UHGV virus genome: UHGV-1557986
DNA from: a virus
Direction: 5' to 3' (one strand)
Length of the DNA stretch: 30,395 nt
Shown here: positions 11,878 to 17,462 of the stretch, piece after piece
Position numbering within the stretch: position 1 is the first letter of the stretch
Layout: each line of letters opens with the position of its first letter
Position numbers and translations under genes: made by a program
The notes under the pieces: model-generated
The model's database searches: none
What the model was told of the DNA's origin: nothing
What the model saw: the letters and a program-made list of their open reading frames with translations, nothing else

Positions 11878-11953
11878 TGGTGGCCCCTACCGGACTTGAA
11901 CCGGTGACCGTGCGATTATGAGTCGCCAGCTCTAACTACTGAGCTAAAGGGCC
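11878..11953 (-). tRNA. tRNA with CAT anticodon, most similar to tRNA-Ile2 (lysidine CAU, reads AUA); elongator Met not excluded
   Basis: Hand-folded 76-nt cloverleaf: acceptor GGCCCTT/AGGGGCC, D-arm GCTC-AGTAGTTA-GAGC, anticodon loop CTCATAA, T-arm ACCGG-TTCAAGT-CCGGT, CCA encoded; closely resembles E. coli ileX as remembered. Confidence 0.8.
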
Positions 11954-13594: not shown

Positions 13595-13670
13595 TGGTGC
13601 CGATTAACGGACTCGAACCGCTGACATCCTGCTTACAAGGCAGGCGCTCTACCAACTGAGCTAAACCGGC
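13595..13670 (-). tRNA. tRNA-Thr (anticodon TGT)
   Basis: Hand-folded: GCCGGTT acceptor, D-arm GCTC-AGTTGGTA-GAGC, anticodon arm CCTGC-CTTGTAA-GCAGG, T-arm AGCGG-TTCGAGT-CCGTT, CCA encoded. Confidence 0.85.
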
Positions 13671-13672
13671 AT

Positions 13673-13748
13673 TGGCGATGGTGAATGGATTTGAACCATC
13701 GACCCGTTGATTAACAGTCAACCGCTCTAACCGCTGAGCTACACCATC
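13673..13748 (-). tRNA. tRNA-Asn (anticodon GTT)
   Basis: Hand-folded: acceptor GATGGTG/CACCATC, D-arm GCTC-AGCGGTTA-GAGC, anticodon arm GTTGA-CTGTTAA-TCAAC, T-loop TTCAAAT, CCA encoded; 2 nt from tRNA-Thr. Confidence 0.85.
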
Positions 13749-14400: not shown

Positions 14401-14430
14401 ATATTACACTAATAAATTTATTAGAGCAAT
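14401..14430 (-). promoter_or_regulatory. C1-type operator(s) overlapping a leftward promoter for the tRNA-tci-ban operon: perfect operator (revcomp ATTGCTCTAATAAATTT, 14414-14430) overlapping a second 15/17 site (14403-14419)
   Basis: On the minus strand: -35 TTGCTC (inside operator), 17-bp spacer, -10 TAATAT. Operator overlaps the dmt stop codon (14421-14423). Confidence 0.6.
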
Positions 14431-17400
14431 ATACCCAAAACGTCATGAGCTACACCTCGAGTGTCCCCCTTACAAGACACAGAACGTCTGGCAAAAAGAG
14501 GTTCCACTCTGAAGCCACTGTCATGATAAAGCTCTCTGATGTTTGGCGCGCCACTGTTAGTAATGAGAACCTTTGCACCTCGACGATGAGCATCCGTCAA
14601 CAGAGACACCAGGCGTTTTTGCTCTTCAAACTTAAAGTCATGACCGGAATAGTTCGTGAATCCCTCTGTATTTGGAAGCGGTTCATACGGCGGATCGCAA
14701 AAGATGACATCTCCTTCTCCGGCAGCTTCAATCACCGCTGCAAAATCACCGCATACAAACTCAGACCGCCCTTCCGCACCGAGGAAGGCTTCCATCTCCT
14801 GTAATGGGAAATACGGAGTTTTATACTTCCCATAACCGACATTGAACTCACCGGCCTGGTTGTAACGCGTCAATCCGTTAAAACAATGTCGGTTCAGGAA
14901 CAAAAACGCCGCTGCGCGATGTAAATCATCATAGACTTGTTTGTTAAACGCATTCCGTACTGCCAGGTATCCTTCCTGTGTGTTGTAGTCCTGGAAGAAA
15001 CGATGTGCCAGAGTGATAAGTGAATGCGCCTCGCGTTGCAGAGTCTTGTAAAAGTTAATCAGGTCAGCATTCACATCATTTAGCAGATTTTCCTGGTATC
15101 CGGCATTCATGAAGACAGCTCCGCCACCAACGAAAGGTTCAATCAGGCGCTTCCCTTCTGGCAAATAGCGAAAGATTTGTTCCAGAACACCAAATTTTCC
15201 ACCAGCCCATTTGAATATGGACCGTTCGAATTCTGCCGCTGGTTTAACTTTTCGCTCTTTTGTTTCACTTCCTTCTTTCTGCCGACATACGGCCTTAGTA
15301 ATCCGATCGCCAATCCAGCGCATTACTGGTATTGCCATACTATTGCCGATCGCTTTGTAACGCGGTCCGTCAGCTGCAAGCATCGCGGCCTCTTCTTCGC
15401 TTAAATCAGGATAGTTATTGCGAAGGTATGCCAGTTCATCTGAAGAAACTTTTTTACGCTTTTCCGTAGGGATCAACGTATGCCCATCAGGAAAACCTTG
15501 CAGCCTTTCACATTCGACAGGGGTAAGACGGCGTATTCTACCGTCGCCGAGCAATACAATTGGTGCTTCATGGTTACATGTTAAAGTTGGTGCCGAATTA
15601 TCGGTTTTTATCTCAGCCCCTCCTTGCCCATGTGCCATGGCAACTATGTTTGTATCATCGCAAGATCTGATAGCGATGTTTGAAGTATATCTGGTAGTTT
15701 CCTTCCCCTCGCCTCTGCTCGGCGCAATATCCCGGCGCACGCCTTCGAACTCAAAAAGTACCGTTGCGGGATCGAGGTCTGTTCGAGCACTTGCGACAAC
15801 AAACACGCGTCGGCGTCGTTGTGCCACTCCGAAGTATTGGGCATCAAGGATTCTCCAGGCCACCTTTCGCTGCGGCCCATAAATACAACCACACTGCGGC
15901 CACTTTGGAGCATGGCAACCGGTTTTGCCATCCCACCGCCAGAACGCGTTACTTTTTCCTGATTCAGGTCGATCACCTGGTTCAAATGGCGCATCTTCTC
16001 CAGCCAATCCGGCAAGGAAACATCCGAAGGCGTTATCTGCCGATGACAAGACTCCTGGGACATTTTCCCAGACAATAACGGCTGGTTTGAGAAATGACTC
16101 AGCCCGTTTGTCGTCAATTGCATTTGCAAGCTCCACATACTTTAAAGTTAGCGCGCCACGCTCATCATCAAGCCCACCACGTAATCCCGCGATACTGAAT
16201 GCCTGACAGTTATGGACCACCGCACCATTGAGGATATAGGAATGATCACCTTCGACTTCTATGTTGTATACAGTATCTAGGCCTACCGATTTAAACTCTT
16301 TGACTGTTCGTAAAAGCATTCCATGAGCCAATCTTGATTTACGTGACAATTTCTGCGGGCAGATTGTTACCTGATAATAATTCCGTTGATTTACCACGCG
16401 ATCCTCGATCACTTTTTTGGGCTCAACTTCAATAAAGCTGACCGAAGAAACATAACCACAAGTCTGTGACAACCCCGCAACGCCCCAAGCAAGCGCAGGA
16501 CTAACACTATTAATTCTAAATCCCGCTTTACCACTTGGTGTCCCATCAGTATCAAGATAGCCTTGTAAAAACACATGACGCAATGGATGCGACATCACCC
16601 ATGCAGGGATACGCTTAGCATGGCTTAACTCGCCAAAATGTTCATTAAGCCAATTGGCATAACACGTATCATTCAAGGTTACTTTGATGCTCCCTCGGAT
16701 TTCGCTTGCCACGGAAAATATGTTTTCTGGTATGCGGCAATGAAACTTTCTCAATTTCTGGCAATTTATGCCAAAAACAACCGCCTTCTTAGATTTACCT
16801 CTCCATCTCCTAATATATCCATCGCCAACATAAGCGCCCGCAAGATACATAGCCTGTTCTTCAGACAAGAACCGAGAACAAATATCTGGAGATGCAATAT
16901 TGAAATTAGTTAGAGCGCACCATTGATATCCCGGCATATCACATGCTGCTCGCCATTCCGGTTCAGACAACAACTCTCTCTTAAAATATGTGCCATTTTT
17001 CCGGGTGTTTTGGGCTTTCCACCGAACAGCCAGGAAGGGATGGTCATTGGTTGTTCTTATACCTAAAGGCTGCCCAACGGCATTAAGTAACCCCGTATTA
17101 GCTATTTTTGAACCAACTCTTTTTACTTGTTGTAACCGCCCGAGATGACTGACTACGTAATCGCCAGGGCAAACATCTTCTATTGGTTTATAACCATTTT
17201 TACAAAGAACCATATGCCCCGCGGTAAAACATGGTGTTCCCCCGACGAGCACGTCAGGGGATTCGATTTCCCCAGCCAAGACTTTTTTGGCAAGTTTTGT
17301 CATGTCGCCAAGGTTGGCGACATGGGGCCAGCGGAGCGCAAGAACGGCCGATGGAAAAGGCTCGATTTCAGCAAACCAAACCGGACGCATACCCAACGGT

Positions 17401-17462
17401 TCCCAGGCAATACTCGCGGCTTCAATTCCACTGCAAACAGATCCATAGCACAGCTCTTTCAC
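14421..17462 (-). CDS. dmt: bifunctional DNA methyltransferase: N-terminal C5-cytosine MTase domain interrupted by an intein, C-terminal Dam-type N6-adenine MTase domain; 1013 aa precursor, GTG start overlapping the hrdC stop
   Basis: C5 motifs: GGTP|CQAFSIAG (motif IV), [11 protein letters not shown] (ENV), [18 protein letters not shown]. Dam motifs: [32 protein letters not shown]. Confidence 0.9.
16209..17231 (-). other. Intein (341 aa) with LAGLIDADG homing-endonuclease domain, inserted between Pro and catalytic Cys of C5-MTase motif IV
   Basis: Starts CFTAGHMVL...[16 protein letters not shown] (Hint block A), TTNDHPF (block B), [11 protein letters not shown] and [11 protein letters not shown] (two LAGLIDADG motifs), ends ...[12 protein letters not shown] followed by +1 Cys of CQAFS. 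Confidence 0.8.

What the first reader, a model, noticed from the sequence alone, without database searches (positions are those of the whole stretch)
16209..17231. LAGLIDADG intein inserted exactly at the catalytic Pro-Cys of the C5-cytosine methyltransferase domain
The 1013-aa methyltransferase carries a 341-aa insertion with a complete intein signature: Cys1 (CFTAGHMVL), block A ([16 protein letters not shown]), block B (TTNDHPF), two LAGLIDADG motifs ([22 protein letters not shown]) and a terminal HN followed by +1 Cys. Conceptual excision joins VLVGGTP to CQAFSIAG, recreating the PCQ active-site motif IV, so the +1 splice nucleophile is also the methyltransferase catalytic cysteine. C5 activity would therefore be splicing-dependent while the C-terminal Dam domain should work regardless. 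The intact endonuclease motifs suggest a recently mobile homing element.
Basis: partly seen in the sequence, partly recalled or inferred. Interest (0 to 1): 0.75.

Follow-up and report, generated by a model that had tools for sequence, protein, structure and literature searches.

The report
Homing intein splitting P1 Dmt methyltransferase
The DNA methyltransferase gene of this P1-like phage-plasmid is interrupted, exactly at the catalytic Pro-Cys of its cytosine-methylase domain, by a 341-residue self-splicing intein carrying a homing endonuclease; the element is real and looks mobile, but it is an ordinary member of a kind already known in phage methylases.

Summary
The dmt ORF (14421-17462, minus strand, 1013 aa) carries a 341-aa in-frame insert (16209-17231). 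P1 and P7 Dmt lack exactly this insert, which leaves GGTP|CQAFS (motif IV). The insert has Cys1, a TxxH block B, two LAGLIDADG motifs with both catalytic Asp, a terminal His-Asn and a +1 Cys. An AlphaFold model (pLDDT 93) matches PI-SceI, TliVMA and PI-PfuI.

About 27% of P1-like plasmids in PLSDB (133/498) and 152/5426 complete E. coli genomes carry it. All copies are at least 99% identical, although they sit in dmt alleles that differ about 4-5 fold more. Both TRD forms of the host gene carry it, which indicates recent horizontal spread.

Among 50%-identity cluster representatives, the intein is one of at least 120 relatives at the same P|C...N|CQ site of C5 methyltransferases. Endonuclease and splicing residues are conserved across them.

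- The native -1 residue is proline, which blocks most tested inteins.
- Block F has Asn where Asp is usual.

Inteins in phage C-5 methylases are already listed for actinophages. I found no description of this P1-family intein. Verdict: real, probably active, a new member of a known kind. Splicing and cleavage remain untested.

The parts
14421..17462 (-). dmt precursor ORF (GTG start, 1013 aa, 112.7 kDa): a C5-cytosine methyltransferase domain interrupted by the intein, followed by a Dam-type N6-adenine methyltransferase domain
   Evidence: annotated dmt in OP279344.1
17232..17462 (-). N-extein, residues 1-77, ending ...VLVGGTP (C5 motif I through the Pro of motif IV)
16209..17231 (-). Intein, residues 78-418 (341 aa, 38.3 kDa), GC 43.0% against 48.7% and 54.5% in the exteins
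17190..17231 (-). Block [15 protein letters not shown], with the Cys1 nucleophile
   Evidence: Cys1 is present in 144/144 relatives
17028..17069 (-). Block [15 protein letters not shown], with the TxxH motif (intein T61, H64)
   Evidence: T61 and H64 are invariant in 129/129 aligned sequences (the query plus 128 site-IV relatives)
16362..16874 (-). LAGLIDADG homing-endonuclease domain (about intein residues 120-290), two alpha-beta-beta-alpha-beta-beta-alpha halves in the model
   Evidence: DSSP of the model; Foldseek hits to PI-SceI, I-SceI and I-OnuI; Pfam LAGLIDADG_3
16818..16844 (-). LAGLIDADG motif 1, LAGAYVGDG (catalytic Asp = intein D137)
   Evidence: Asp in 122/129 aligned family sequences
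16542..16568 (-). LAGLIDADG motif 2, LQGYLDTDG (catalytic Asp = intein D229)
   Evidence: Asp in 127/129 aligned family sequences
16209..16280 (-). Blocks F and [25 protein letters not shown], with the terminal His-Asn. Block F has Asn (intein N323) where Asp is usual
   Evidence: TIGR01443 hit
16206..16208 (-). +1 Cys (Cys419): the nucleophile for trans-thioesterification and, after splicing, the catalytic Cys of motif IV (PCQ)
15228..16208 (-). C-extein part 1: the rest of the C5 methyltransferase domain (ENV, QRRR, TRD, GNS motifs)
15543..15722 (-). Variable target-recognition segment of the C5 domain (short form here; P1 and RCS47 have an unrelated form 246 nt longer)
14424..15227 (-). C-extein part 2: Dam-type N6-adenine methyltransferase domain (DPPY)
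   Evidence: Pfam PF02086 at 192 bits, TIGR00571 at 249 bits

Best explanation
This is a canonical class-1 intein with an embedded double-motif LAGLIDADG homing endonuclease. It is inserted between Pro77 and Cys78 (numbering of the intein-free protein) of motif IV of the C5-cytosine methyltransferase domain of a P1-family Dmt protein.

Inferred mechanism:
1. The gene is translated as a 112.7-kDa precursor.
2. Cys1 of the intein performs an N-S acyl shift on the Pro-Cys bond.
3. The +1 Cys attacks the resulting thioester.
4. The terminal Asn cyclises and releases the 38.3-kDa intein.
5. An S-N shift leaves a 74.5-kDa Dmt with a native PCQ catalytic loop.

Until splicing occurs, the C5 domain lacks a functional catalytic loop. 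The Dam domain lies downstream and is probably unaffected. The freed intein is expected to cut intein-free dmt alleles at the motif IV coding sequence when two P1-like elements meet in one cell, and repair then copies the intein in (homing).

Shown here: the anatomy, the fold, the clean indel, the conservation and the population pattern. Inferred: the splicing chemistry, endonuclease activity and the homing process itself.
For: - Exact 341-aa indel against P1 and P7, restoring GGTPCQAFS.
- Hint, LAGLIDADG and intein C-terminal profile hits.
- AF2 model at pLDDT 93.4. Its top PDB matches are PI-SceI, TliVMA, PhoVMA, PI-PfuI and PI-PkoII at E 1e-16 to 1e-9.
- The C5 profile match becomes contiguous and stronger once the insert is removed.
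- Among 144 full-length relatives in 50%-identity cluster representatives, all start with Cys and all end in Asn. 129 have -1 Pro and 120 sit in P|C...N|CQ.
- In the alignment of 129 sequences (the query plus 128 site-IV relatives), T61 and H64 are invariant and the two LAGLIDADG Asp are present in 122 and 127.
- A HEN-less mini-intein occupies the same site in P0023, as the homing cycle predicts.
- Population: 133/498 P1-like plasmids carry the intein, 128 of them at >=99% identity. In complete E. coli genomes 152/5426 carry it, all at >=99% and full length.
- Intein pi is 0.009, against 0.044 in the N-extein and 0.043 in the distal C-extein. Synonymous diversity is 0.019, against 0.04-0.15 in the extein segments.
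- The intein is found with both TRD forms and with two upstream flank haplotypes.
- Intein pN/pS is about 0.3.
- The C5 exteins of intein-carrying alleles are as constrained (0.12-0.29) as those of intein-free alleles (0.13-0.28).
Against: - No experiment shows splicing or cleavage.
- The -1 residue is Pro, which blocks or strongly impairs splicing of most inteins tested (PMC6486613).
- Block F carries Asn instead of the usual Asp. That Asp is usual is from my own knowledge of intein motifs.
- Pfam Intein_splicing is below its cut-off (18-22 bits against 35.8), and Hint_2 only just passes.
- Low intein diversity across diverged flanks could also arise from ordinary recombination among co-resident P1-like plasmids, without endonuclease activity.
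- The constraint seen on the exteins may partly predate the invasion.
- The allele sample is small (19), and the intein-carrying alleles were picked from a ranked list.
Confidence: 0.85

Rival explanations
1. The intein splices poorly or not at all. The insert has an intein origin, but with Pro at -1 and Asn in block F it rarely completes splicing. The C5 domain is then effectively dead in carriers, and the gene is kept only for its Dam domain, which P1 needs for pac-site methylation. The element persists by homing or hitch-hiking.
For: Pro at -1 is reported to block most natural and engineered inteins (PMC6486613). The Dam function is the one with a documented role in P1 (PMC12707154). A predicted internal late promoter upstream of the Dam domain is conserved.
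Against: 129 of 144 diverged relatives keep -1 Pro together with intact Cys1, TxxH, terminal Asn and +1 Cys. That fits a lineage adapted to this junction rather than a dead one. The C5 exteins of carriers show pN/pS of 0.12-0.29, no weaker than in non-carriers. All C5 motifs are intact. At least one intein (Ssp DnaX) splices with -1 Pro (PMC6486613).
Confidence: 0.1
2. The intein splices but no longer homes. Splicing works, the endonuclease is inactive, and the patchy distribution reflects vertical descent plus ordinary homologous recombination between P1-like plasmids.
For: Some intein-free alleles (L014-L016, L018) share the intein-carriers' downstream flank haplotype, so recombination or precise loss does occur in this region. 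No cleavage data exist.
Against: Both catalytic Asp and a conserved Lys (intein K206) are kept here and in more than 94% of the aligned family sequences. Intein synonymous diversity is 2-7 fold below that of its flanks. The intein sits in two different immediate upstream haplotypes and in both TRD backgrounds. Nonsynonymous changes are not enriched in the endonuclease domain.
Confidence: 0.2
3. The segment is not an intein at all. It would instead be a group I intron with a free-standing endonuclease gene, an accessory domain of the methyltransferase, or an assembly artefact.
For: None found. PDB sequence search alone gave only weak hits (best E 0.0014).
Against: The segment is in frame with no stop codon across 1023 nt. 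It has Hint blocks at both ends and the Hint fold. The same sequence appears in 133 independent plasmid records and 152 complete genomes. Homologues lack it precisely.
Confidence: 0.01

Closest known systems
PI-SceI (Sce VMA1 intein) and the archaeal VMA/Pol inteins TliVMA, PhoVMA, PI-PfuI and PI-PkoII
   Same: A Hint splicing domain with an inserted double-motif LAGLIDADG endonuclease. They share Cys1, TxxH, a terminal His-Asn and a +1 Cys, and they are the best structural matches (Foldseek E 1e-16 to 1e-9, TM 0.53-0.63).
   Different: Only 11-16% sequence identity. The host protein differs (a DNA methyltransferase, not an ATPase, polymerase or reductase). This intein is smaller (341 aa against 360-540) and has no obvious extra DNA-recognition region. 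It has -1 Pro, and Asn instead of Asp in block F.
Inteins of actinobacteriophage DNA methylases (N6/N4 type: Kelley 2016 PMC5050341, Gosselin 2023 PMC9957025; C-5 type listed in bioRxiv 10.1101/2025.01.02.630785)
   Same: Mobile LAGLIDADG inteins in orphan phage DNA methyltransferases, with patchy distribution and evidence of horizontal transfer between diverged host alleles.
   Different: The studies that describe sites in detail concern N6_N4 methylases. The C-5 case is only listed, for actinophages, with no site detail in the text I could read. The intein here is in a gammaproteobacterial P1-family phage-plasmid, in a C5-Dam fusion protein, at motif IV.
The motif IV (P|C...N|CQ) intein family found here in public protein data (for example P0027-P0058, and P0011 from Mannheimia haemolytica)
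   Same: Same insertion point, same blocks, 40-57% identity for the nearest clusters, and the same -1 Pro, +1 Cys and +2 Gln.
   Different: Those proteins are mostly unnamed metagenomic or automatically annotated entries ('Hint domain-containing protein'). Most hosts are stand-alone C5 methyltransferases rather than Dmt fusions.

Membership tests
Class 1 intein (Hint/HINT splicing domain) | Cys/Ser at position 1 and Cys/Ser/Thr at +1 | tested here: met
   Cys78 (intein Cys1) and Cys419 (+1). Cys1 is present in 144/144 relatives.
Class 1 intein (Hint/HINT splicing domain) | Block B TxxH motif | tested here: met
   TNDH at intein residues 61-64. T and H are invariant in 129/129 aligned sequences.
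Class 1 intein (Hint/HINT splicing domain) | C-terminal Asn, usually preceded by His (block G), and block F | tested here: met
   The intein ends AVVHN. TIGR01443 scores 28.9 bits against a cut-off of 15.6. The block F Asp position is Asn (110/129 Asn in the family), so this position is atypical.
Class 1 intein (Hint/HINT splicing domain) | Hint fold with N- and C-terminal halves flanking any inserted domain | tested here: met
   AF2 pLDDT 93.4. Foldseek matches full-length inteins and also the mini-inteins Prp8 and gp41-1.
Class 1 intein (Hint/HINT splicing domain) | In-frame insertion that is absent from orthologues, whose removal restores a conserved host motif | tested here: met
   P1 and P7 lack exactly these 341 aa, and GGTPCQAFS is restored. 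The Pfam C5 match becomes contiguous. 360 plasmids have the uninterrupted site.
Class 1 intein (Hint/HINT splicing domain) | Protein splicing demonstrated (ligated exteins plus free intein) | not testable with these tools
   This needs expression, western blotting and mass spectrometry. -1 Pro is a known obstacle for other inteins (PMC6486613).
LAGLIDADG (DOD) homing endonuclease, monomeric double-motif type | Two LAGLIDADG helices, each ending in a catalytic acidic residue | tested here: met
   LAGAYVGDG (D137) and LQGYLDTDG (D229). These Asp are conserved in 122/129 and 127/129 aligned sequences.
LAGLIDADG (DOD) homing endonuclease, monomeric double-motif type | Two alpha-beta-beta-alpha-beta-beta-alpha half-domains | tested here: met
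   DSSP of the model over residues 124-275. Foldseek hits to I-SceI, I-AniI and I-OnuI at E 1e-4 to 1e-2. Pfam PF14528 at 35 bits.
LAGLIDADG (DOD) homing endonuclease, monomeric double-motif type | Site-specific cleavage of the intein-free allele, and homing | tested here: inconclusive
   Cleavage cannot be tested here. The population pattern (low intein diversity in diverged flanks, multiple backgrounds) fits homing but does not exclude plain recombination.
C5-cytosine DNA methyltransferase (host domain, PF00145) | Motif IV PCQ with the catalytic Cys, plus motifs I, VI (ENV), VIII (QRR) and X (GN) | tested here: met
   PF00145 scores 127.9 bits on the spliced sequence. The alignment shows ENVPG, QRRRR and GNS. 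PCQ exists only after conceptual splicing.
Dam-type N6-adenine methyltransferase (host domain, PF02086/TIGR00571) | D12-class fold with the DPPY motif | tested here: met
   PF02086 at 192 bits and TIGR00571 at 249 bits. FCDPPY is present.

The most novel reading that the evidence does not exclude
Splicing of this intein may be slow or conditional. Possible causes are the strained Pro-Cys scissile bond, or redox sensitivity, since the intein has 11 Cys and both nucleophiles are Cys. Under this reading the intein acts as a post-translational timer. It would separate Dam activity, which is available from the precursor or from an internal late transcript and is needed for pac processing, from C5 methylation, which would appear only after splicing. 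A corollary is that the motif IV family would be a natural reservoir of inteins evolved to splice with proline at -1, a junction that most engineered inteins cannot handle.
Probability: 0.12. Interest if true: 0.7.

Novelty: new member of a known kind. Interest (0 to 1): 0.42.

Why it matters
- P1 is a model phage, and P1-like phage-plasmids are common carriers of resistance genes in Enterobacteriaceae. About a quarter of them encode a Dmt whose cytosine-methylase half can only work after protein splicing, and the annotation calls it simply 'Dam family methyltransferase'. Anyone measuring Dmt size, activity or methylomes, or engineering P1 vectors such as OP279344.1 (whose dmt, including the intein, is identical to the window's), should know the gene contains a mobile element.
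- The intein supplies a candidate meganuclease that targets the conserved motif IV coding sequence.
- It is also a natural candidate for an intein that splices with proline at -1, which would be useful in protein engineering.
- The near-identical copies in diverged alleles give a tractable system for studying homing between co-resident plasmid prophages.

Tried and rejected
- Sequence search of the PDB with the intein gave only marginal hits (Spl DnaX mini-intein E 0.0014, PI-PkoII E 0.027). I therefore relied on a structure prediction and a fold search.
- Pfam Intein_splicing stayed below its cut-off.
- Ten full-text literature searches (two of them rejected for term syntax; the others) found no paper on an intein in P1, P7 or P1-like Dmt, or on the motif IV site. 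The only relevant mention was a listing of C-5 methylase as an actinophage intein host.
- I considered and rejected a group I intron with a free-standing endonuclease, an accessory or TRD domain, and an assembly artefact.
- I looked for co-conversion tracts. The proximal C-extein is more uniform among carriers (pi 0.016), but the same haplotype also occurs in some intein-free alleles, so the tract evidence is suggestive only.
- I did not examine the model coordinates for active-site geometry, because no tool exposes them.
Full report
**What is there.**
The window is a P1-like phage-plasmid. Over 25 kb it is 99.3% identical to OP279344.1 ('Escherichia phage P1 del res del mod') and 97.5-98% identical to P7 and P1. 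The finding lies in dmt, ORF 14421..17462 on the minus strand, 1013 aa. The gene sits between hrdC/rdgC upstream and the tRNA-Asn/Thr cluster downstream.

Removing them joins ...VLVGGTP to CQAFSIAG....

**Clean indel.**
I aligned the window protein with P7 Dam (672 aa), P1 Dmt (754 aa) and RCS47 Dmt (1095 aa). P7 and P1 lack precisely these 341 residues, with identical flanks. RCS47 has them.

The four proteins also differ in an unrelated variable (target-recognition) segment, which is 246 nt longer in P1 and RCS47. All four combinations of intein present/absent with short/long TRD exist.

Pfam on the full protein reports a split DNA_methylase match (107 bits). On the conceptually spliced protein the match is contiguous across motif IV (residues 8-135 = profile 5-119) and scores 128 bits. 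The C-terminal Dam domain is unaffected (PF02086 192 bits; TIGR00571 249 bits).

**It is an intein with a homing endonuclease.**
- Profile hits: LAGLIDADG_3 (31-35 bits, cut-off 22.5), Hint_2 (28.6, cut-off 28.4), NCBIfam intein_Cterm (28.9, cut-off 15.6). Intein_splicing is below its cut-off.
- Sequence search of the PDB was weak. I therefore predicted the structure from an alignment of 14 relatives, giving pLDDT 93.4 and pTM 0.90.
- Foldseek against the PDB returns only intein-endonucleases at the top: PI-SceI (E 1e-16), TliVMA, PhoVMA, PI-PfuI and PI-PkoII. Free-standing LAGLIDADG enzymes and mini-inteins follow.
- The model has beta-rich Hint halves at both ends. Between them are two alpha-beta-beta-alpha-beta-beta-alpha units whose first helices are the LAGLIDADG motifs.
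- Key residues present: Cys1, T61/H64 (TxxH), D137 and D229 (the endonuclease acids), H340-N341 and the +1 Cys.

**A large site-specific family.**
An exhaustive HMMER search of 1.84 billion cluster representatives found 4453 proteins at E<=1e-3, 1619 at E<=1e-10 and 192 at E<=1e-30. The figures below come from 144 full-length matches among the best hits.

| Feature | Count (of 144) |
|---|---|
| Begin with Cys | 144 |
| End in Asn | 144 |
| End in His-Asn | 129 |
| Pro at -1 | 129 |
| In the context P\|C...N\|CQ (typically GG[TS]P\|CF...VHN\|CQxFSxAG, motif IV of C5 methyltransferases) | 120 |

In the alignment of 129 sequences (the query plus 128 site-IV relatives), T61 and H64 are invariant. 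The two LAGLIDADG Asp are kept in 122 and 127 sequences, and a Lys (K206) in 127.

The word-indexed search showed PF00145 on nearly all hits. It also turned up decaying forms:
- a mini-intein without the endonuclease at the same site (P0023);
- a Mannheimia haemolytica protein with an intact intein but a truncated C-extein (P0011);
- an ORF that starts inside an intein remnant (P0024).

These stages are what the homing cycle predicts.

**Population evidence for recent spread.**
In PLSDB, 498 plasmids carry dmt. Of these, 133 contain intein DNA (126 full length, 128 at >=99% identity), and 360 have the uninterrupted junction. Among 5426 complete E. coli genomes, 152 carry it. All copies are full length and >=99% identical, all lie under a methyltransferase annotation, and 148 of 153 places are on plasmids.

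I fetched 19 alleles, 9 with the intein and 10 without.

| Segment | Nucleotide diversity among intein-carriers |
|---|---|
| Intein | 0.009 |
| N-extein | 0.044 |
| Proximal C-extein | 0.016 |
| Distal C-extein | 0.043 |

- Synonymous diversity is 0.019 in the intein, against 0.04-0.15 in the extein segments.
- Carriers show two different haplotypes within 15 nt upstream of the junction. One of them was not seen in any intein-free allele sampled.
- Intein pN/pS is about 0.3, and no variation touches a catalytic residue.
- The C5 exteins of carriers are as constrained (0.12-0.29) as those of non-carriers (0.13-0.28).
- Intein GC is 43%, against 49-55% for the exteins.

Together these results indicate an element younger than the alleles it sits in, moving among them. 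The caveats are that the sample is small, that the carrier alleles were chosen from a ranked list, and that ordinary recombination between co-resident P1-like plasmids could produce part of this pattern.

**Mechanism (inferred).**
1. The 112.7-kDa precursor undergoes the standard class-1 pathway.
2. An N-S acyl shift occurs at Pro77-Cys78.
3. Cys419 carries out trans-thioesterification.
4. Asn418 cyclises.
5. An S-N shift yields 74.5-kDa Dmt with native PCQ and a free 38.3-kDa endonuclease (masses).

The +1 nucleophile becomes the catalytic cysteine of the methyltransferase. The Pro and Cys of the catalytic loop are 341 residues apart in the precursor, so C5 activity should require splicing. 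This follows from the established role of motif IV and was not tested here.

Dam activity is probably independent of splicing. In addition, the late promoter LPdam2 predicted in the P7 annotation, which lies inside the C5 domain upstream of the Dam domain, is conserved 19/19 at window 15433-15451. A Dam-only product is therefore conceivable.

- The native -1 residue is proline. Natural and engineered inteins generally fail or splice poorly with Pro at -1, and Ssp DnaX is an exception (PMC6486613). Here -1 Pro is the family norm (129/144). This argues that the lineage is adapted to that junction, but it leaves real doubt about rate and efficiency.
- The block F position that is usually Asp (my own knowledge of intein motifs) is Asn here and in 110/129 aligned family sequences.

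**Comparison with what is known.**
Inteins commonly sit in catalytic motifs of nucleic-acid enzymes and are frequent in phages. They are described in actinophage N6/N4 DNA methylases (PMC5050341, PMC9957025). A 2025 preprint lists C-5 DNA methylase among actinophage intein hosts (10.1101/2025.01.02.630785).

None of my searches found a description of an intein in P1, P7 or P1-like Dmt, or of the motif IV insertion site. Database names are generic: 'Dam family methyltransferase' and 'Hint domain-containing protein'.

I therefore class it as a new member of a known kind. It is real, well formed and probably active. It has practical relevance for P1 biology and P1-derived vectors, and the -1 Pro junction is of modest interest to specialists.

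**Verdict.**
The element follows the standard intein pattern and the site is widely occupied in public data.
- The open questions are experimental: splicing efficiency with -1 Pro, endonuclease specificity, and whether splicing gates C5 methylation in vivo.

Noticed in passing
window 15543-15722 (-), and L003/L004: The variable (target-recognition) segment of the Dmt C5 domain exists in two unrelated forms: short in the window and P7, and 246 nt longer in P1 and RCS47. SJ46-like alleles are longer still (2424 nt gene). These forms assort independently of the intein, so the C5 specificity of P1-family Dmt probably differs between lineages.
   Followed up: partly
window 15433-15451 (-): The late promoter LPdam2 predicted in the P7 annotation is 19/19 identical here. 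It lies inside the C5 domain, about 70 codons upstream of the Dam domain, and in-frame Met codons follow it. It could give a Dam-only product that bypasses the intein. It is a prediction only.
   Followed up: partly
proteins P0069 and P0075: Some C5 methyltransferases carry a second, related intein at or next to the ENV motif VI (LLWENV|CF...VHN|CGALS; FVENVPEY|CF...VHN|C). C5 methyltransferases therefore have at least two intein insertion sites.
   Followed up: no
proteins P0023, P0011, P0024: Decay stages of the same intein lineage: a mini-intein without the endonuclease at the same site; a Mannheimia haemolytica protein (seen on 578 contigs) with an intact intein but a truncated C-extein; and a Rodentibacter methyltransferase ORF that begins inside an intein remnant.
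   Followed up: no
L009 (NZ_CP027443.1), L011 (NZ_CP057105.1), L012 (NZ_CP070953.1): These are damaged intein-carrying dmt genes. L009 has a 1-nt frameshift in the N-extein. L011 has its 5' end removed next to an IS91 transposase. L012 has only the last 320 nt of the intein, left beside an IS1.
   Followed up: partly
window 11878-11953, 13595-13670, 13673-13748 (-): Three tRNA genes (Met-CAT, Thr-TGT, Asn-GTT) lie downstream of dmt, as in P1 and P7.
   Followed up: no
window 1-116: The first 116 bases are not covered by the match to OP279344.1, P7 or P1, whereas 117-25000 align at 97.5-99.3%.
   Followed up: no
L001 (OP279344.1): A laboratory 'P1 del res del mod' genome has a dmt gene 100% identical to the window's (short TRD plus intein), unlike the reference P1 sequence (NC_005856: long TRD, no intein, and Trp instead of Gly in VLVWGTPCQ). 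'P1' stocks therefore differ at this locus.
   Followed up: partly
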